Source of the DNA: a virus
Virus record (IMG/VR): IMGVR_UViG_3300027759_000071
Span: 18,227 to 82,226 of that record
Direction: 5' to 3' (one strand)
Length of the DNA stretch: 64,000 nucleotides
A model generated the notes under the pieces. The model was not told where the DNA came from and did not search any database. It saw only the letters and a list, made by a program, of their open reading frames with translations. Positions 36 to 7,350 of the stretch are shown piece by piece. Numbering within the stretch: position 1 is the stretch's first letter; each line of letters starts with the position of its first letter. The translations under genes were made by a program, and so were the position numbers.

Positions 36-3000
36 ATGTATAATAGCGATTTCAACACAAGTAGATATAATGACCCAAACGTAACGGTAACTAAGATTAC
101 TGAAAATATAAATCGTGTCACAATATCACAAGCGGGAGTTCCTGGTCCAAAGGGCGATAAGGGTGACCCGTATGGTTCATCTGGAACGGCAGGGTCATCG
201 GGAACATCTGGGACAAGTGGTACATCGGGCTCTGCTGGAAGTAGTGGTACAAGCGGTACAACTGGTTCACATGGCACATCTGGTTTTAGAGGCCCTGCCG
301 GAACAAGTGGTACAACGGGTAAAGATGGTACATATTTCGGAAGTAGTGGAACTTCAGGAACAACTGGTTCGCATGGTACATCTGGTACAAGCGGCTCATC
401 GGGAACATCTGGCACAAGTGGTACATCGGGAACATCTGGAACAAGTGGTACATCTGCAACGGATGGTAGTGCTGGCACTGACGGTAGCGCTGGTACTGAT
501 GGTAGTGCAGGAACGGATGGAACGGCTGGAACTGATGGTTCAGCTGGTACAACAGGTTCACATGGCACATCTGGTACTAGTGGAAAAAATGGTACATCTG
601 GCTCATCGGGAACATCTGGCACAAGTGGTTCATCTGGAAGTAGTGGTTCAACGGGAACTGCTGGTACATCTGGTACAACCGGCTCACAAGGTACATCTGG
701 TACATCTGGAAGTAGTGGAAGTGATGGTTCGTCTGGTACATCTGGTACTGATGGCTCTGCTGGTACATCGGGAAGTAGTGGAAGTAGCGGAAGTAGTGGT
801 ACTGATGGTAGTGCTGGAACTGATGGTAGTGCGGGAACAGATGGTTCAGCCGGTACATCGGGAAGTTCTGGAAGTAGTGGAACTGATGGTAGTGCCGGAA
901 CATCAGGAACAAGTGGTAGCAGTGGTTTAGCAGGTAAAGCTGGTTCATCGGGAACATCCGGTACGAGAGGTACATCTGGTAGTAGTGGAGCAAGAGGACC
1001 TAATGGTTCTAATGGTTCATCTGGGTCATCGGGAACTTCAGGAAAAAATGGTACATCTGGTAGTAGTGGTAATGATGGTACATCCGGTAGTAGTGGAAGT
1101 GATGGTTCATCTGGTACAAGCGGTACTGCTGGTTTAAGTGGAGCTGATGGTCCTATTTGGATTTTTGATTCAACTATTGCAGCATTTAATGAACCTACCT
1201 CTGGACATTTTATAACAAATGATAATTTCTTTAGTTCTATTCTTAATGTTAGTATTTGTGAAGCAAATGCATCTAATGGAGATATGTATGGATGGTTTAA
1301 CGCAATTAGCGTATATGCAGCAAATGGACATGATACATATGTAAGAATTAGTCAAGTTGGAAACACTGGTAATTTTGGTATTTATAAACTTAATACTTGC
1401 AATCGTAACCTATCAGGATTAAATCCATATTGGGATATTACATTCTATCAAGTTATTGCATCATCTGGACTTTTAGATAATGGAATTTCTTTTTCATTTT
1501 CTTGGTTTACAAATGGTATAACTGGTACATCGGGAACATCTGGCACAAGCGGCACATCTGGTGAAAGTGGTAGTGATGGCTCAGCTGGTACATCTGGAAC
1601 ATCTGGTACATCTGGAAGTGGTGGCTCAACTGGTTCGGCTGGTACATCGGGAACATCTGGCACAAGTGGGAGTAGTGGAAGTAATGGTTCATCGGGAACA
1701 TCAGGAACATCTGGTACAAGCGGTACATCTGGAAGTGATGGTAGTACGGGGTCAGCGGGAACATCTGGAACATCTGGCACAAGAGGAACATCGGGAAGTA
1801 GTGGTAGAACTCCTATTCAAGGTATAGATTATATTAGTACATCAGGTACAACCGGTTCGGCTGGTACATCCGGATTAGATGGGCAATTTTTAGGAAGTAG
1901 TGGTTCGTCTGGTAAAGATGGAACATCAGGAAGTTCTGGTTTTAATGGTACGGCTGGTTCATCGGGAACATCTGGTTCATCGGGTTCATCTGGTATTTCA
2001 ATAGCAGGTACATCTGGTTCATCTGGTACAACGGGTTCATATGGCACATCTGGTAGTGGTGGGCAAACTGGTTCATCGGGAACATCTGGAAGTGATGGAT
2101 ATGATGGAACATCTGGTACATCTGGACAAGCTGGTTCATCGGGAACATCTGGTTCATCTGGTTCATCTGGAACATCTGGATTTGATGGAGGACCTGGTTT
2201 AAATGGTACGGCTGGAAGTAGTGGTACATCGGGAACGCAAGGTGCACAAGGAGATCCTGGTACATCGGGAACATCTGGTACATCTGGTAGTAGTGGACTT
2301 GCTGGATTTTCAGGAACATCTGGAACATCTGGTACTGGTGGTTCGGCTGGTACATCTGGAAGTAGTGGAACATCTGGTACGACAGGTAAAGATGGACAAA
2401 ATGGTACATCGGGAACATCTGGAACTGGTGGTACATCATCAACCGCTGGTAGTGCTGGTACGGCAGGTTCATCTGGCACAGGCGGTTCTGCTGGAACTGA
2501 TGGAGTAGCTGGTTCATCTGGAACATCCGGTAAAAGTGGTACGGATGGTGCAGCTGGTAAAGATGGTTCGTCTGGAACATCGGGAAACACAGGATATAAT
2601 GGTACTGATGGTTCAGCCGGCTCATCTGGAGTTAGTGGTACATCTGGTACAACTGGTTATAGTGGTGTTAATGGAACATCTGGAAGTAGTGGTGCTAATG
2701 GAGCAGCTGGTACATCTGGTAAAGATGGTGCTGGATTTAGTGCTATATCACCTACAACATCTGGAGCAGTATTAACGGCAAATGGTACGGCAACAAGTGC
2801 AACAGCAAATACGGGTGTAACTATTACTGGTAACACACTTTATGCAGATGCATATTATCAAAATTCATCTCGAACTTTAAAAACTAATATTCTTCCATTT
2901 AATAAATCGGCATTACAAATTATTGGAAATGTTAATGTTGTAGAATTTAATTATTTAACTGATTTAAAAAATAGACATATTGGATTTATTGCAGAAGATA

Positions 3001-3119
3001 CTCCAGTTGAATTGACAACTAAACATCAAAATACAATGGATGTTCCATCTACTGTGGGAGTATTGGTAAAAGCAGTTCAAGAATTAGAAAAAAGAGTTAA
3101 GGATTTAGAAAATAAGTAA
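36..3119 (+). CDS. Collagen-like (Gly-X-Ser) fibre protein with C-terminal intramolecular chaperone (peptidase S74-like)
   Basis: Starts with true collagen triplets GVPGPKGDKGDP. Two long G-T/S-S tracts are split by a ~120-aa globular insert. The C-terminus SSRTLKTNI...IGFIAED...LVKAVQELEKRV is typical of the S74 chaperone. Confidence 0.8.
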   Translation: MYNSDFNTSRYNDPNVTVTKITENINRVTISQAGVPGPKGDKGDPYGSSGTAGSSGTSGTSGTSGSAGSSGTSGTTGSHGTSGFRGPAGTSGTTGKDGTYFGSSGTSGTTGSHGTSGTSGSSGTSGTSGTSGTSGTSGTSATDGSAGTDGSAGTDGSAGTDGTAGTDGSAGTTGSHGTSGTSGKNGTSGSSGTSGTSGSSGSSGSTGTAGTSGTTGSQGTSGTSGSSGSDGSSGTSGTDGSAGTSGSSGSSGSSGTDGSAGTDGSAGTDGSAGTSGSSGSSGTDGSAGTSGTSGSSGLAGKAGSSGTSGTRGTSGSSGARGPNGSNGSSGSSGTSGKNGTSGSSGNDGTSGSSGSDGSSGTSGTAGLSGADGPIWIFDSTIAAFNEPTSGHFITNDNFFSSILNVSICEANASNGDMYGWFNAISVYAANGHDTYVRISQVGNTGNFGIYKLNTCNRNLSGLNPYWDITFYQVIASSGLLDNGISFSFSWFTNGITGTSGTSGTSGTSGESGSDGSAGTSGTSGTSGSGGSTGSAGTSGTSGTSGSSGSNGSSGTSGTSGTSGTSGSDGSTGSAGTSGTSGTRGTSGSSGRTPIQGIDYISTSGTTGSAGTSGLDGQFLGSSGSSGKDGTSGSSGFNGTAGSSGTSGSSGSSGISIAGTSGSSGTTGSYGTSGSGGQTGSSGTSGSDGYDGTSGTSGQAGSSGTSGSSGSSGTSGFDGGPGLNGTAGSSGTSGTQGAQGDPGTSGTSGTSGSSGLAGFSGTSGTSGTGGSAGTSGSSGTSGTTGKDGQNGTSGTSGTGGTSSTAGSAGTAGSSGTGGSAGTDGVAGSSGTSGKSGTDGAAGKDGSSGTSGNTGYNGTDGSAGSSGVSGTSGTTGYSGVNGTSGSSGANGAAGTSGKDGAGFSAISPTTSGAVLTANGTATSATANTGVTITGNTLYADAYYQNSSRTLKTNILPFNKSALQIIGNVNVVEFNYLTDLKNRHIGFIAEDTPVELTTKHQNTMDVPSTVGVLVKAVQELEKRVKDLENK

Positions 3120-5077
3120 TGAGTAAAGTTAATAATTATCTAGTAACATTTACGGAAGTTAGTACTATGGGATTTACCGCCAAAGCAACTTGGCCGGTTG
3201 GGTCTGGTAGTTACGCAATGAATAGAGGTGAGGTTGATACCTATTGGTATGTAAGACAAGATGGAGCAACTTATTCAGCATATACAAATAAGAGATATCC
3301 TCGTTATCAGGATTTAGAAGCAACTACAACTACTTCAACTACTTCAACTACTTCAACTACCACAACACCCGCCCCAAGTACTATGTTTGGTAAATCAACC
3401 AGTACATATGCTACTGTTGGATTGGCCTGTGCCGGAACAATAACTGGAACGGTATATCAAGACCCAGCATACGGAACAACGCCAACATCTGGACAGCAAT
3501 TATATACTGATAGTGGTAGAACTACAACTTGGACTCCACCATCAACATCTGGATATTATCTATTTCAATATGGAAGTACCTCAAAATGGGCAGTTAGTGT
3601 AAGTAGTGGAGGTGTTATTACAGGAGTTACATCGTGTTATTACTCAGCAGTTATTGGATATGATGCATCATCTGTAACTACCGCTTGTTCTCTTACAAAT
3701 TCAATAGGTGTTACTGGTAATGATACTGATTTTTGTAATTCAACAAGCTTTACATCTGCTGCAGGATTTTCAATGGCTACTGGAAATTATTATCTATCGG
3801 ATGGAACTAATTATATACAATGTAGTCACACAACTAGTACTAATTTATTCACTAGAATTAGTTTTGGGTGTACTACATGTCCAGGTACAACCACAACAAC
3901 TACAACCACAACAGCAGGTCCTTGTCAAGTATCATTGAGTCCTAGTAATGTTGATGGCGCTACGGCATGTGATAATTGGAATAATGTAATTGATAGAACA
4001 ACATATTATGCATTATATGCAGGATGTTCTGCAACCAATGGCCAACAACTTTATACTAATAGTGGATTAACAACATTAATTCCAAATGGTTGGTATTCTG
4101 ATGGTACTAATTATTGGTTAGTTGCTGGCGGAGCTGGTACTTTAAATAGCCAAACTGCATGTGCTGGAACAACTACAACCACTACAACCACTACAACTAC
4201 AACAACTACAACAACTACAACAGCAGCTCCATTAAATTCAGTAACCTATGGGTATCACTTATCTGACCCAGACCAAGCATGTACAAATTATGAAACAAAT
4301 GTACATGTGACGAAATATAATGCAGGGAATGCAGCTTCTGCAAATGGTATTACAATATACAATAACTCTAATGGTAGTGGTACACCTACGGATGGATATT
4401 ATGCTAGAGGCAGTAATGTTTGGTATTCTACCAGTGGTGTATTAGGAAGTGAAGCTGCATGTTATGGAGGAACAACCACTACAACCACTACAACTACAAC
4501 AACGGAGCCGCCAACAACAACGACTACAACAACAACGACTACAACAACGGAGCCGCCAACAACAACGACTACAACAACGGAGCCGCCAACAACAACGACT
4601 ACAACAAGTACTTCAACTACAACGGAGCCGCCAACAACTACGACTACAACAACTGCAGCACCATCTGTAGTGAATATCACAGTTAATTATGAGAGTGCAA
4701 ATAATTTAGGAAACATAACATCTTTAGAAATAATAGGAAATGATGGTACGGGATACCCAGTTACCATAACATCGGGAACATTCCCATTAACTACCGTTGG
4801 GCAATCGGTAACAGCAACCACACCGCACTACGATGGTGAATATACATGGGATACTGACTATCCAAACGGTGTATATGCACCTGTTTTATGGGAAGTTAGA
4901 CTTTACTATAATAATATTGGTGGAGCAATTGATAAAACAGTTGCAACAAGAAATGGAACAGAATCTGTTTGTTTTGGTTTAAGTTCAGTATCAGGACCGG
5001 GAGCAACTCAATTTGGATTTAGTGCACTAAACCTAGGGGACAGTATTGTAATTGAAGCTAAAGCTGGAATTTGTTAA
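3119..5077 (+). CDS. Mucin-like Thr-rich protein with four Cys-bracketed beta-rich repeats (probable virion appendage)
   Basis: Poly-Thr linkers, 4x TEPP, and repeated AC...Y...G(Y/W/N)Y...C domains. TAATG overlap with the upstream gene. No signal peptide evident. Confidence 0.7.
   Translation: MSKVNNYLVTFTEVSTMGFTAKATWPVGSGSYAMNRGEVDTYWYVRQDGATYSAYTNKRYPRYQDLEATTTTSTTSTTSTTTTPAPSTMFGKSTSTYATVGLACAGTITGTVYQDPAYGTTPTSGQQLYTDSGRTTTWTPPSTSGYYLFQYGSTSKWAVSVSSGGVITGVTSCYYSAVIGYDASSVTTACSLTNSIGVTGNDTDFCNSTSFTSAAGFSMATGNYYLSDGTNYIQCSHTTSTNLFTRISFGCTTCPGTTTTTTTTTAGPCQVSLSPSNVDGATACDNWNNVIDRTTYYALYAGCSATNGQQLYTNSGLTTLIPNGWYSDGTNYWLVAGGAGTLNSQTACAGTTTTTTTTTTTTTTTTTTAAPLNSVTYGYHLSDPDQACTNYETNVHVTKYNAGNAASANGITIYNNSNGSGTPTDGYYARGSNVWYSTSGVLGSEAACYGGTTTTTTTTTTTEPPTTTTTTTTTTTTEPPTTTTTTTEPPTTTTTTSTSTTTEPPTTTTTTTAAPSVVNITVNYESANNLGNITSLEIIGNDGTGYPVTITSGTFPLTTVGQSVTATTPHYDGEYTWDTDYPNGVYAPVLWEVRLYYNNIGGAIDKTVATRNGTESVCFGLSSVSGPGATQFGFSALNLGDSIVIEAKAGIC
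4466..4655 (+). repeat. Thr-codon low-complexity tract with 4 copies of ACGGAGCCGCCAACAAC (TEPPT)
   Basis: Copies start at 4502, 4547, 4577 and 4622. Confidence 0.9.
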
Positions 5078-5130: not shown

Positions 5131-7350
5131 ATGGAAGAACTATTTAAATCTTGGGGAATTCAATATGACCCAAATAATAGCATAAATGAATTAGCATCCA
5201 AACGAATTGAAGTTTGTAATTCATGCGAAAATAAAATACAAAACCAATTATCTAATAATATTTGTAATTTATGCGGATGTGGATTAAAATCAAAAGTATT
5301 CTCATCTGAAAAGGGTGAATGTCCTGCTGGAAAATGGAATGAGGTTGATAATATTCTGTTAAAAAAGAAAATACCACAAAATATAAGATATATATGTTGC
5401 CAACCAGCAATCACTTATTATACTTGGCAAGTTGAAGTTTTAATTAATAACTTCAAAAAGATGGGAGTTAATCCAAATTACATTGATATTGTATGTGCTA
5501 TTGATAATAATGTAATTCCACCAGAATGGATTAAATTAATGACTCATTATAATAGTGTTAGATTTTTCTTTTATAATGATACTAGAAAAGATAAAAATTA
5601 CCAACCATCCATTTATTTTAATCTGATGAAGCAGCATATTGTTGCAAGACCGGAAATTCAAAAGGATGTTTTATTTTTACATGATTCGGATATTGTATTT
5701 ACTAAACCAGTAAATTTTAATTCAATGATGTTTGGAGATGCTTGGTATGTAAGTAACACAAATTCTTATATAAACTACGATTACATACAAGTTAAAGGAA
5801 ACGATATTTACGAAAAAATGTGTGATATAGTTGGTATAAATAAAAATATACCAAAGTTGATGAATAACAATTCAGGCGGAGCTCAGTATATTGTTAAAAA
5901 TACTACTTATAAATTTTGGGATAAAGTAGAAAATGATAGTATTGAATTGTATAAATATTTTTGTGAAGTAGAACCGCAATATGTAAAAAAGAATGAATAT
6001 GATTATCCAATTCAAAAATGGACTGCTGGCATGTGGTCTTTACTTTGGAATGCTTGGTTAGCTGGACATGAAACTATTGTTGATACAAGAATGGATTTTG
6101 GATGGGTTACAAATTCTTACGATGATGTAAATAAATATGCAATATTACATAATTCTGGAGTTACTCCTGCTTTTAAAAATTTGTTTTTAAAAAGTAATTA
6201 TATAAATAAATTACCATATTTTGAAAATATTGAAGTAGATACAAATAGGGCATCTTATTATTATTGGCAAGAAGTGTGTGAAACTGCAAATAAATCTATA
6301 TTAATAGAGTCAACGCCTGAGATGAAAATTAAAAAAGATTTTGAAAAATACAAAATAACTCAATTACAATTAGACCCTTATGGTGTATGTAACGCAAAAT
6401 GTTGGTATTGTCCTGTAAAATATAAAGGAAATCCGGTAGAGGGTAGAGAAGTAATGAGTATTGAATTGATGGAAAAGATAATTAAAAATCTAATAGATGA
6501 AAGAGATAAGCCAAACGGATTAGTAGGAAAAACATTTAACGGATTATATACAGCGCATTATAACGAAATTTTATTATATCCACATTTTGAAGAATTTTTA
6601 AAACTATGTAGAAAATATAAATTAGTTACAATGGTACTTTCAAACGGAGTACCTTTGACTCGTAGTAAAATTGATATACTAAAAGAATATCAAGATGTAC
6701 TAAGTGGAATATGCCTAAATACCCCAGCATTTGATGCAGAAACTTGGAGTAAACGAAGTGGTATTAATATAAAGCAGTTTGATACTTTAATTGATAATAT
6801 AACATATGCAGTTGAACAATTACCAAATATGGTTAAAAACAAAGCATTTTCAATTCAAATAAATGGAGTGCATGATTTATCATTTGGAGATAAAGGTGGA
6901 TGGTTAGAAAAGGGAGAGCAATTTCCACATGATATAGATTTGGATGTTGAAACTGGAGAATTGGTACAACAAAAGAAAAAAGCTGAGGAATTATTTCCTG
7001 ATGTAAACATATTCACTGTCCCATATCTAATTGATAGAGCAGGATTACTGGATGAAGTAATAACCAACAAACCTGCAATTGAGAGAAATTTAATGAGAAA
7101 TAACGAAAGTAAGAAAGTTATTGGATGTGGTAATGGTAGAGAGGTGGGTGGTAGACCTATTGGTTGGTTACATGTAAATGCCGCTGGGGATGCTTTCCTA
7201 TGTTGTAACGATTATGATTTTGATTTTAAATTTGGTAATTTTAAAACGCAAGAATTAAGAGATTTTTGGGGAAACGAAGAACATATCCAAAAAATTAAAA
7301 CCTCTTATGAAACTATATGTACGAATTGCGCATCTGCAGTTTTTGAGTAA
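5131..7350 (+). CDS. Fusion protein: Cys-rich N-terminal domain + GT-A glycosyltransferase (GT95/GT96-like) + radical SAM with SPASM/twitch domain
   Basis: N-terminus CxxC...CxxCGC...CPxGKW. GT part: YYTWQVEVLINNFKKMG, DxD motif in FLHDSDIVF (5683-5691), GGAQY, KWTAGMW. Radical SAM CNAKCWYC (6388-6411). C-terminal C...GDAFLCCND...CxxC. Confidence 0.8.
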   Translation: MEELFKSWGIQYDPNNSINELASKRIEVCNSCENKIQNQLSNNICNLCGCGLKSKVFSSEKGECPAGKWNEVDNILLKKKIPQNIRYICCQPAITYYTWQVEVLINNFKKMGVNPNYIDIVCAIDNNVIPPEWIKLMTHYNSVRFFFYNDTRKDKNYQPSIYFNLMKQHIVARPEIQKDVLFLHDSDIVFTKPVNFNSMMFGDAWYVSNTNSYINYDYIQVKGNDIYEKMCDIVGINKNIPKLMNNNSGGAQYIVKNTTYKFWDKVENDSIELYKYFCEVEPQYVKKNEYDYPIQKWTAGMWSLLWNAWLAGHETIVDTRMDFGWVTNSYDDVNKYAILHNSGVTPAFKNLFLKSNYINKLPYFENIEVDTNRASYYYWQEVCETANKSILIESTPEMKIKKDFEKYKITQLQLDPYGVCNAKCWYCPVKYKGNPVEGREVMSIELMEKIIKNLIDERDKPNGLVGKTFNGLYTAHYNEILLYPHFEEFLKLCRKYKLVTMVLSNGVPLTRSKIDILKEYQDVLSGICLNTPAFDAETWSKRSGINIKQFDTLIDNITYAVEQLPNMVKNKAFSIQINGVHDLSFGDKGGWLEKGEQFPHDIDLDVETGELVQQKKKAEELFPDVNIFTVPYLIDRAGLLDEVITNKPAIERNLMRNNESKKVIGCGNGREVGGRPIGWLHVNAAGDAFLCCNDYDFDFKFGNFKTQELRDFWGNEEHIQKIKTSYETICTNCASAVFE

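What the first reader, a model, noticed from the sequence alone, without database searches (positions are those of the whole stretch)
6340..7350. Radical SAM-SPASM/twitch domain fused to the glycosyltransferase: possible novel sugar or peptide tailoring
Seen: an intact CxxxCxxC (6388-6411) and a C-terminal C...GxAxxCC...CxxC auxiliary-cluster motif are in the same polypeptide as the GT, with a further N-terminal CxxC/CxxCGC/CP..KW metal-binding domain. Established: SPASM/twitch enzymes either modify peptides (anSME Ser/Cys oxidation, RiPP cross-linking, epimerisation) or oxidise/epimerise sugars (BtrN, NeoN). Inference: it makes an unusual sugar for, or on, the fibre, or it modifies fibre Ser/Thr directly. 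I know of no characterised virion-tailoring enzyme with this architecture.
Basis: partly seen in the sequence, partly recalled or inferred. Interest (0 to 1): 0.78.

Follow-up and report, generated by a model that had tools for sequence, protein, structure and literature searches.

The report
Phage glycosyltransferase fused to BtrN-like radical SAM
An uncultured T4-like phage encodes one protein joining a sugar-transferring enzyme to a radical SAM enzyme, and this enzyme pair repeatedly sits beside mucin-like poly-threonine proteins, pointing to an undescribed way of sugar-coating phage surface proteins.

Summary
ORF 5131-7350 (739 aa) holds a six-Cys N-terminal module, a GT-A glycosyltransferase domain and a radical SAM domain. 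The GT domain has no Pfam family. Its fold resembles retaining GT6/GT8/GT24 enzymes and its H-D-x-D motif is invariant. The radical SAM domain has CxxxCxxC at 6388-6411.

The auxiliary motif is twitch-type, not full SPASM. Across 45 diverse relatives only four extra Cys are invariant, and they align with the four auxiliary-cluster ligands of BtrN. BtrN is by far the closest solved relative (profile E 8.5e-19; next 2e-6). No housekeeping family (MoaA, QueE, NrdG) is reached.

The fusion is not sporadic. About 50 protein clusters (55-95% identity) carry it, and a quick tree is consistent with a single origin from adjacent GT and rSAM genes. The same rSAM family is independently fused or adjacent to GT60, GT2 and a sulfotransferase.

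All nine proteins with a Thr run of 10 or more, among 723 ORFs in the fetched loci, lie just upstream of the rSAM gene, in six gene arrangements.

Best reading (confidence 0.55): a cassette that O-glycosylates poly-Thr proteins, probably virion surface proteins, with the rSAM domain oxidising or epimerising the sugar. The chemistry and the substrate are inferred, not shown.

The parts
5131..7350 (+). Whole gene: Cys-rich module + GT-A glycosyltransferase + twitch radical SAM, 739 aa. Soluble: maximum Kyte-Doolittle 19-residue mean is 0.96.
5131..5370 (+). N-terminal ~80-aa module with six invariant Cys (C29, C32, C45, C48, C50, C64), G49, P65 and W69. PHROG 13558. Probably metal-binding; role unknown.
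   Evidence: Found as a stand-alone ~80-aa gene beside stand-alone rSAM genes in L045/L047/L048. Found fused to the GT alone in P0077/P0161/P0219.
5380..6300 (+). GT-A fold glycosyltransferase domain (aa ~84-390), PHROG 4417, no Pfam family.
5680..5691 (+). H184-D185-S186-D187, the invariant DxD-type metal/nucleotide-sugar motif of the GT-A domain.
6322..7347 (+). Radical SAM core plus twitch auxiliary-cluster domain (aa 398-739). Model pLDDT 95.5.
6388..6411 (+). CxxxCxxC (C420, C424, C427), the site of the radical SAM [4Fe-4S] cluster.
7126..7329 (+). Auxiliary-cluster Cys C666, C691, C730 and C733, which align with BtrN C169/C187/C232/C235. Also the nearly invariant C692 and the invariant D694.
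3119..5077 (+). Poly-Thr mucin-like protein directly upstream: 652 aa, 35% Ser+Thr, Thr runs up to 18, T(n)EPP repeats, Cys-bracketed domains. Proposed acceptor substrate.
36..3119 (+). Collagen-like Gly-X-Y fibre rich in Ser/Thr (39% S+T). A possible second acceptor.

Best explanation
The gene encodes a soluble three-part tailoring enzyme belonging to a conserved cassette: a poly-Thr mucin-like protein, a glycosyltransferase and a BtrN-like radical SAM enzyme.

Proposed mechanism:
- The GT-A domain uses a nucleotide sugar (DxD- and metal-dependent, probably retaining) to O-glycosylate the Thr tracts of the neighbouring protein, and perhaps the Ser/Thr-rich collagen-like fibre.
- The radical SAM domain cleaves SAM at its CxxxCxxC cluster. 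The resulting 5'-deoxyadenosyl radical abstracts a C-H hydrogen from a sugar carbon that bears a hydroxyl group.
- Either the electron passes to the single auxiliary [4Fe-4S] cluster, giving a keto-sugar as BtrN does, or a hydrogen is returned to the opposite face, giving an epimer as in HygY and NeoN.
- I favour action on the sugar after transfer. Action on the NDP-sugar donor before transfer is not excluded.

Shown here: the domain architecture, the cluster motifs, the nearest relatives, the recurrence of the fusion and the gene-neighbourhood pattern.

Inferred: the substrate, the reaction, the order of steps and the location of the poly-Thr protein on the virion.
For: (1) Radical SAM identity. 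Pfam Radical_SAM and SPASM both pass their cutoffs. Seven Cys are invariant across 45 relatives at 26-49% identity.

(2) BtrN is the nearest characterised enzyme by three routes. Single-sequence search: E 0.03. Family profile: E 8.5e-19 against 2e-6 for the next hit, with the CN..CW(Y/F)CP loop, YxE and xNG motifs and all four auxiliary Cys aligned. Fold: top Foldseek hit, E 7e-10, TM 0.68 on BtrN. DesII and BlsE, other sugar-acting enzymes, are also among the fold hits.

(3) The rSAM family is fused to unrelated sugar-handling domains in both orders. These are the phage GT-A, PF11397/GT60 (N-terminal), GT2 (N- or C-terminal) and Sulfotransfer_2. A quick tree suggests several separate fusion events.

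(4) Stand-alone members lie beside sugar genes. These are GT60 genes (L047, L049, L052, L053), the same phage GT (L002/L003, 4-nt overlap), Mannosyl_trans3, TylF-type sugar O-methyltransferases and a sugar-1-phosphate nucleotidyltransferase.

(5) In the GT family the GT domain is always N-terminal and the C-terminal slot varies. It is filled alternatively by GT2, GT11, GT6 or methyltransferases, so the rSAM occupies a glycan-tailoring slot.

(6) The poly-Thr association. 9 of 9 proteins with a Thr run >=10, among 723 ORFs, lie 0-4 genes upstream of the rSAM gene on the same strand. This holds in six arrangements, including a Geobacter GT2-rSAM fusion.

(7) Setting. The gene is the only recognisable enzyme I found in a block of structural genes: gp23, collagen-like fibres, gp13/14/15-like neck, sheath and tube.

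(8) Phage virion O-glycosylation by phage GTs is established in mycobacteriophages (Freeman et al. 2023, as cited in PMC12363180).
Against: - There are no biochemical data.
- The GT call rests on fold and the DxD motif only. No Pfam or CAZy family and no solved sequence relative was found.
- BtrN is still a remote relative (12-15% identity in structural alignment), and this family carries ~90 extra residues.
- The GT family varies (retaining GT-A, GT60, inverting GT2) while the rSAM and the poly-Thr protein stay constant. That fits an rSAM acting on the protein just as well.
- Peptide-modifying SPASM/twitch enzymes (SuiB, CteB, SkfB, anSME, EpeE) are close behind BtrN in fold rank.
- One bacterial locus (Duganella) places the rSAM next to a C39-peptidase ABC exporter, a peptide-type context.
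- No NDP-sugar pathway genes were found on the 82 kb available. The contig is only ~41% complete.
- It is not shown that the poly-Thr protein is a virion component.
Confidence: 0.55

Rival explanations
1. The radical SAM domain acts on the protein, not the sugar. It would abstract hydrogen from Thr in the poly-Thr tracts. The outcome could be oxidation of the side-chain secondary alcohol to a ketone (as anSME does for Ser/Cys), epimerisation to a D-residue (as YydG/EpeE do), or a cross-link. The GT would glycosylate before or after that step.
For: The rSAM and the poly-Thr protein are the constant partners while the GT family changes. SPASM/twitch peptide modifiers are strong fold matches. YydG/EpeE and SkfB appear in the profile search at E 1.7e-4 and 4e-3. 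The ~90-aa insertion relative to BtrN could bind a polypeptide. The Duganella locus has a C39 ABC exporter.
Against: BtrN outranks every peptide modifier by more than 14 orders of magnitude in the profile search. There is no RRE/PqqD-like leader-binding domain. There is only one auxiliary cluster. Fusions to a sulfotransferase, and neighbours such as TylF O-methyltransferases and a nucleotidyltransferase, occur in loci without poly-Thr proteins.
Confidence: 0.2
2. The enzyme modifies host surface glycans (LPS O-chain or capsule) during infection, for example to block superinfection. This is how GTs in the hypervariable tail-fibre regions of pelagimyophages have been read.
For: PMC7029224 reports GTs and 'radical SAM cassettes' in that region and proposes host O-chain modification. 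The fold matches include LPS-type GT8 and WbbM enzymes.
Against: The protein is soluble with no membrane segment. Its conserved partner is a phage-encoded poly-Thr protein in six arrangements. It lies inside a late structural gene block with no intervening terminator.
Confidence: 0.08
3. It is a housekeeping-type, nucleotide-directed or DNA-directed radical SAM enzyme (MoaA, QueE, NrdG or viperin-like), or part of a small-molecule 'antibiotic' pathway, and is fused to a GT by chance.
For: There are weak partial NCBIfam hits to viperin (23.7 bits, cutoff 180) and, in 6 of 45 members, to MoaA. A cyanophage rSAM 'maturase' next to a sugar aminotransferase was labelled 'antibiotic synthesis' (PMC12801897).
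Against: Every such hit is far below its cutoff, and QueE and NrdG are absent from the family-wide list. MoaA and viperin rank well below BtrN in fold and are absent from the profile hits. The fusion is conserved and recurrent.
Confidence: 0.04

Closest known systems
BtrN (2-deoxy-scyllo-inosamine dehydrogenase, butirosin pathway; PDB 4M7T/4M7S)
   Same: It is a twitch-type radical SAM enzyme with one auxiliary [4Fe-4S] cluster on four Cys, and all four align with this family. It shares the CN..CW(Y/F)CP cluster loop and the YxE and xNG motifs. It is the best solved match by profile (E 8.5e-19) and by fold.
   Different: Identity is only about 12-15% in structural alignment. This family is ~90 residues longer. 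It is fused or adjacent to glycosyltransferases rather than set in an aminoglycoside cluster. It has an extra, nearly invariant Cys (C692) beside an auxiliary ligand. No 2-deoxystreptamine genes are nearby.
HygY, NeoN and SpeY: twitch radical SAM sugar epimerases and dehydrogenases of aminoglycoside pathways (from my own knowledge; HygY and NeoN references are listed in PMC10991966)
   Same: They carry out the proposed chemistry: hydrogen abstraction from a sugar carbon in an already assembled glycoside, ending in a ketone or an epimer. A Cys acts as hydrogen donor in the epimerases.
   Different: Their substrates are small molecules, not glycoproteins.
Mycobacteriophage virion glycosylation (Che8, Corndog, Myrna; Freeman et al. 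2023)
   Same: Phage-encoded GTs decorate the phage's own structural proteins.
   Different: As far as I know that system involves no radical SAM enzyme. The GTs and host phyla differ. Here the proposed acceptor is a separate mucin-like poly-Thr protein.
GT60 / PF11397 polypeptide alpha-GlcNAc transferases (Dictyostelium Gnt1 on Skp1 hydroxyproline; Trypanosoma cruzi mucin Thr GlcNAc-transferase; family function from my own knowledge)
   Same: In sister loci this family takes the place of the phage GT-A next to the same rSAM and poly-Thr proteins. It is a protein O-glycosylation initiator.
   Different: The window's GT domain is not a PF11397 member.
Mimivirus L230, a bifunctional collagen lysyl hydroxylase and glucosyltransferase (from my own knowledge)
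   Same: It is a viral fusion of a residue- or sugar-tailoring oxidoreductase with a GT, acting on collagen-like fibres.
   Different: Its oxidoreductase is a 2-oxoglutarate/Fe(II) oxygenase acting on Lys, not a radical SAM enzyme. It shows no homology to this protein.
anSME (anaerobic sulfatase-maturating enzyme)
   Same: It belongs to the SPASM/twitch superfamily and oxidises an alcohol or thiol to a carbonyl. It is a good fold match.
   Different: It has two auxiliary clusters and acts on a peptide. The NCBIfam score here is 22 bits against a cutoff of 349.

Membership tests
Radical SAM superfamily | CxxxCxxC motif binding the SAM-cleaving [4Fe-4S] cluster | tested here: met
   C420/C424/C427 are invariant in 20 fused and 45 stand-alone relatives. 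Pfam PF04055 scores 36.6 bits against a cutoff of 29.5.
Radical SAM superfamily | Partial TIM-barrel core with SAM-binding motifs (GGE-like and ribose motifs) | tested here: met
   The model has pLDDT 95.5 and matches radical SAM structures. Y477-N-E479 and S504-N-G506 align with BtrN's YGE and TNG.
Radical SAM superfamily | Reductive cleavage of SAM to 5'-deoxyadenosine | not testable with these tools
   This needs anaerobic reconstitution and an assay.
SPASM domain (two auxiliary clusters) | Seven-Cys motif CX9-15GX4C ... CX2CX5CX3C ... C | tested here: not met
   Only five Cys lie after residue 640, and only four are invariant in the family. The Pfam SPASM model does match (33.3 bits against 21.5), but it also covers twitch domains.
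Twitch subclass (single auxiliary cluster, BtrN-like) | Four Cys ligands equivalent to BtrN C169/C187/C232/C235 | tested here: met
   The profile alignment pairs family C666/C691/C730/C733 with BtrN C169/C187/C232/C235. That those residues are BtrN's ligands is from my own knowledge of the published structure.
BtrN orthologue (2-DOIA dehydrogenase) | High similarity and a 2-deoxystreptamine/aminoglycoside gene context | tested here: not met
   Single-sequence E is only 0.03, with 12-15% identity in structural alignment. Neighbours are GTs and structural genes, not aminoglycoside genes.
MoaA / QueE / NrdG housekeeping radical SAM enzymes | Score above the family model cutoff | tested here: not met
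   MoaA models are hit by 6 of 45 members at E ~1e-5, far below cutoff. QueE and NrdG are not among the listed families.
anSME / RiPP SPASM maturases | Score above the family cutoff; two auxiliary clusters; RRE domain for RiPP enzymes | tested here: not met
   Sulfatase_rSAM scores 22 bits against 349, AlbA 16.5 against 850 and ScmF 24 against 400. No RRE or PqqD hit was found.
GT-A fold glycosyltransferase | Rossmann-like GT-A fold | tested here: met
   Foldseek E 6e-7 to 2e-5, probability 1.0, against GT6 alpha-1,3-GalT/ABO, GT24 UGGT, GT8 glycogenin/LARGE1 and WbbM. TM is only 0.45-0.62, and the VIA-align check was unavailable.
GT-A fold glycosyltransferase | DxD metal/nucleotide-sugar motif | tested here: met
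   H184, D185 and D187 are invariant in 26 sequences. Structural equivalence to the DxD of the matched GTs was not inspected.
A named GT family (Pfam/CAZy) | Sequence-model match | tested here: not met
   There is no Pfam hit at E<=0.1 and no solved sequence relative by profile. The only match is PHROG 4417, 'unknown function'.
Phage virion O-glycosylation system | Phage GT encoded with Ser/Thr-rich structural proteins | tested here: met
Phage virion O-glycosylation system | Glycan demonstrated on virion proteins | not testable with these tools
   This needs glycoprotein staining or mass spectrometry of particles or of co-expressed proteins.

The most novel reading that the evidence does not exclude
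A widespread, mostly phage-borne cassette (poly-Thr mucin-like protein + interchangeable protein O-glycosyltransferase + BtrN-like twitch radical SAM enzyme) makes a radical-SAM-modified O-glycan, or a radical-modified glycosylated Thr linker, on virus surface proteins. To my knowledge this would be the first radical SAM step in protein O-glycan biosynthesis. The same enzyme pair is also placed beside T6SS spike genes in deltaproteobacteria.
Probability: 0.4. Interest if true: 0.85.

Novelty: new variant of a known kind. Interest (0 to 1): 0.72.

Why it matters
Virion glycosylation is known in only a few phage groups, and no radical SAM enzyme has been tied to protein O-glycosylation as far as I know. 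This work defines a distinct, uncharacterised radical SAM family that is largely viral. Its genomic 'grammar' (poly-Thr protein, GT, rSAM) gives a concrete, testable substrate hypothesis.

If confirmed, it would add new sugar chemistry, such as keto- or epimerised sugars on mucin-like linkers, to phage surface biology. That bears on adhesion, protease resistance and recognition. It would also re-interpret the 'radical SAM cassettes' and GTs seen in hypervariable tail-fibre regions of marine myophages. Finally, it would provide a compact bifunctional enzyme for glyco-engineering.

Tried and rejected
Contexts came from the search for related loci instead.
- A profile of the GT domain against PDB sequences gave only spurious geminin hits.
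- tblastn of the rSAM half against 50,697 deposited phage genomes gave no match. The family is known only from uncultured viral contigs and MAGs.
- The promoter/terminator scan showed nothing above the shuffled background.
- I first thought the N-terminal Cys-rich module travels only with the rSAM and could be a dedicated electron donor. I dropped this because it is also fused to the GT alone. Its role stays open.
- I first guessed a cyanophage or pelagiphage origin. The sheath protein is instead closest to Microcystis phage Mel-JY01 and the Flavobacterium 'immuto' phages at ~46%.
- The poly-Thr proteins show no detectable homology outside close relatives. Only their architecture is shared.
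- The careful tree search did not finish. A quick IQ-TREE tree was used, and three rows had over-long domain envelopes before column trimming.
- HygY, NeoN and SpeY could not be compared because no sequences were available to me.
Full report
**1. What is there**

The window is part of an 82-kb IMG/VR viral contig, about 41% complete. Its capsid, neck, sheath, tube and baseplate genes are T4-like. The sheath protein is closest, at ~46% identity, to Microcystis phage Mel-JY01 and the Flavobacterium 'immuto' myophages.

ORF 5131..7350 (+) encodes 739 aa. It lies 53 nt after a poly-Thr protein gene (3119..5077). That gene in turn overlaps the stop of a collagen-like fibre gene (36..3119). The ORF ends 57 nt before the gp13-like neck gene. 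No terminator-like site separates these genes.

The protein has no membrane-like segment.

**2.

- CxxxCxxC is C420/C424/C427 at nt 6388-6411.
- Pfam Radical_SAM (aa 417-566) and SPASM (aa 678-733) both exceed their gathering scores.
- The C-terminal Cys are C666, C691, C692, C730 and C733.
- The N-terminal module carries C29, C32, C45, C48, C50 and C64. All six, plus G49, P65 and W69, are invariant in eight homologues.

**3. The radical SAM half is a twitch enzyme related to BtrN**

An exhaustive HMMER search of 1.84 billion representatives found a compact family: 594 proteins at E<=1e-3 and 75 at E<=1e-30. Most are stand-alone proteins of 300-350 aa.

In an alignment of 45 such proteins (26-49% identity), nine columns are invariant. 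Three are the CxxxCxxC Cys. Four more are C666, C691, C730 and C733. The other two are P532 and D694. C692 is conserved in at least 90%. This is one auxiliary cluster, not the seven-Cys SPASM arrangement.

No NCBIfam model is approached. The best partial hits are spiro-SPASM, a tungsten-cofactor maturase and viperin, all far below cutoff. MoaA is hit weakly by 6 of 45 members. QueE and NrdG are not listed.

A profile of the family hits BtrN at E 8.5e-19. Next come TYW1 at 2e-6, YydG/EpeE at 1.7e-4, SkfB at 4e-3 and CteB at 0.03. The alignment pairs the four auxiliary Cys with BtrN C169/C187/C232/C235. It also pairs the cluster loop and the YxE and xNG motifs.

The AlphaFold model (pLDDT 95.5) also has BtrN as its top Foldseek match (E 7e-10). 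SuiB, DesII, CteB, SkfB, anSME, BlsE, EpeE, viperin and MoaA follow.

In BFVD the only close relative is an unnamed 'Radical_SAM domain containing protein' from an uncultured phage. Atlas neighbours are mostly viral. No deposited phage genome in the collection searched has a tblastn match.

**4. The middle domain is a GT-A glycosyltransferase by fold**

Pfam finds nothing, and PHROG 4417 is 'unknown function'. A model of residues 1-400 (pLDDT 88.7) matches retaining GT-A enzymes: GT6 alpha-1,3-galactosyltransferase and ABO transferases, GT24 UGGT, GT8 glycogenin and LARGE1, and WbbM. E values run from 6e-7 to 2e-5 with probability 1.0, though TM is only 0.45-0.62.

H184-D185-x-D187 is invariant in 26 sequences. 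A sequence profile finds no solved relative.

The domain is very common as a stand-alone ~310-aa protein, with more than 1,100 hits, all unnamed. It also occurs in Gram-positive siphophages, often next to the major tail protein gene.

**5. The fusion is conserved, and fusions recur**

About 50 clusters at 55-95% identity carry GT+rSAM. Most lack the N-terminal module. They lie on contigs up to 299 kb.

In two Flavobacteriales-binned contigs the same GT and rSAM are separate, adjacent genes that overlap by 4 nt. In a quick tree of the rSAM domain:
- the nine fused forms make one group (SH-aLRT 82);
- they are sister to a stand-alone viral gene (95);
- that clade is sister to the split pair (98).

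This is consistent with a single fusion of a pre-existing gene pair.

Elsewhere in the family the rSAM is fused to PF11397/GT60 (N-terminal; at least three placements on the tree). It is also fused to GT2 (N- or C-terminal) and to Sulfotransfer_2.

In the GT family the GT is always N-terminal. The C-terminal slot is filled alternatively by GT2, GT11, GT6 or methyltransferases.

**6. Neighbourhoods**

Stand-alone rSAM genes in viral contigs lie beside or overlap GT60 genes (L047, L049-L053). Other members lie beside a putative mannosyltransferase, TylF-type O-methyltransferases and a sugar-1-phosphate nucleotidyltransferase.

The most striking result concerns poly-Thr proteins. Among 723 non-redundant ORFs in the window and all fetched loci, only nine have a Thr run of 10 or more. 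All nine lie 0-4 genes upstream of the rSAM gene on the same strand. The six arrangements are:
- the GT-rSAM fusion (window, L042-L044);
- split GT then rSAM (L003);
- rSAM then GT60 (L049);
- GT60 then rSAM (L053);
- the Cys-rich module plus rSAM (L048);
- a Geobacter GT2-rSAM fusion (L026).

These proteins share an architecture rather than detectable homology. Small, often Cys-bracketed or FN3-like domains are joined by T(6-28) tracts punctuated by AAP, EAP or EPP.

The loci are not all independent. L042-L044 are close relatives, and the sample was gathered by searching for the enzyme. The association therefore needs an unbiased re-test.

**7. Interpretation**

The evidence supports a cassette for mucin-type O-glycosylation of poly-Thr proteins. 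These are probably surface-exposed virion proteins, though that is not shown. The rSAM would be a sugar-tailoring partner of the GT. By analogy with BtrN, and with HygY and NeoN (from my own knowledge; references in PMC10991966), the reaction is most likely oxidation of a sugar CH-OH to a ketone, or epimerisation. C692 is a candidate hydrogen donor.

The main rival is that the rSAM acts on Thr itself. The rSAM and the poly-Thr protein are the constant partners while the GT family changes.

Host-LPS modification is how such genes were read in pelagimyophages (PMC7029224). 'Antibiotic synthesis' is the label given to an rSAM gene in a cyanophage (PMC12801897; not shown to belong to this family). 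Both fit the data less well.

The role of the N-terminal six-Cys module is open. It is found next to stand-alone rSAM genes, and also fused to the GT alone.

**8. Novelty**

Phage virion glycosylation is known from mycobacteriophages, and twitch rSAM sugar enzymes are known from aminoglycoside pathways. My literature searches found no description of their combination, of the poly-Thr/GT/rSAM triad, or of this rSAM family. I class it as a new variant of a known kind.

**9. Earlier notes of this scan**

Notes on the same window had already proposed an O-glycosylation system and a mucin-like protein here. They were unchecked. The tests above agree with them.

Noticed in passing
L007, L009-L014, L018, L027 (e.g. 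L018:938-8951): In Syntrophorhabdus and other deltaproteobacterial MAGs a GT60-rSAM fusion (622 aa) of the same rSAM family directly follows a conserved cassette. The cassette is DUF2169+pentapeptide (~1300 aa), a pentapeptide-repeat protein, DUF3540 and a PAAR-like protein, which is a T6SS spike or effector setting. The enzyme may decorate the spike or repeat proteins, or may itself be cargo.
   Followed up: partly
window 5131-5370; L045:9062-9316, L047:1914-2141, L048:7935-8171: The ~80-aa six-Cys module (CxxC...CxxCGC...CP..W, PHROG 13558) exists as a stand-alone small gene beside stand-alone rSAM genes. It also exists fused to the GT alone (P0077, P0161, P0219). It may bind metal or serve for docking; its function is unknown.
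   Followed up: partly
proteins P0052-P0088: The phage GT-A domain is a fixed N-terminal unit whose C-terminal partner varies: GT2, GT11 (fucosyltransferase-like), GT6, TylF/Methyltransf_24, other SAM methyltransferases, or the rSAM. This looks like a modular two-step glycan-building enzyme family.
   Followed up: partly
phage records H1-H40, e.g. Enterococcus phages phiFL1A/phiFL2A: Stand-alone homologues of the GT domain (30-40% identity) occur in Enterococcus, Lactobacillus, Staphylococcus, Lactococcus and Clostridium siphophages. They are annotated 'hypothetical' and often lie next to the major tail protein gene. These may be unrecognised virion glycosylation genes.
   Followed up: no
L025:8010-13836 (Duganella sp. 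1411): A stand-alone rSAM family member lies beside a sugar-1-phosphate nucleotidyltransferase gene and a 1370-aa ABC exporter with a C39 peptidase domain. This could be a glycosylated secreted-peptide system.
   Followed up: no
L008:529-5135 (Sediminibacterium MAG): The rSAM gene here is flanked by two TylF-like O-methyltransferases, an IMPDH/GMP-reductase-like protein and a 2OG-Fe(II) oxygenase. This may be a sugar or nucleoside tailoring cluster.
   Followed up: no
window 3119-5077 and counterparts in L003, L026, L042-L044, L048, L049, L053: The poly-Thr proteins from unrelated loci use the same linker grammar, T(6-28) followed by AAP, EAP, EPP or PAP. Some carry FN3-like repeats (L049, L053). 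The motif may be the acceptor signature.
   Followed up: partly
literature: PMC12801897 (cyanophage S-SCSM2R ORF305-309): A T4-like cyanophage has an rSAM 'maturase' next to a DegT/AHBA-type sugar aminotransferase and an amidinotransferase, labelled 'antibiotic synthesis'. The gene order recalls BtrN-type oxidation followed by transamination of a sugar. I did not check whether that rSAM belongs to this family.
   Followed up: no
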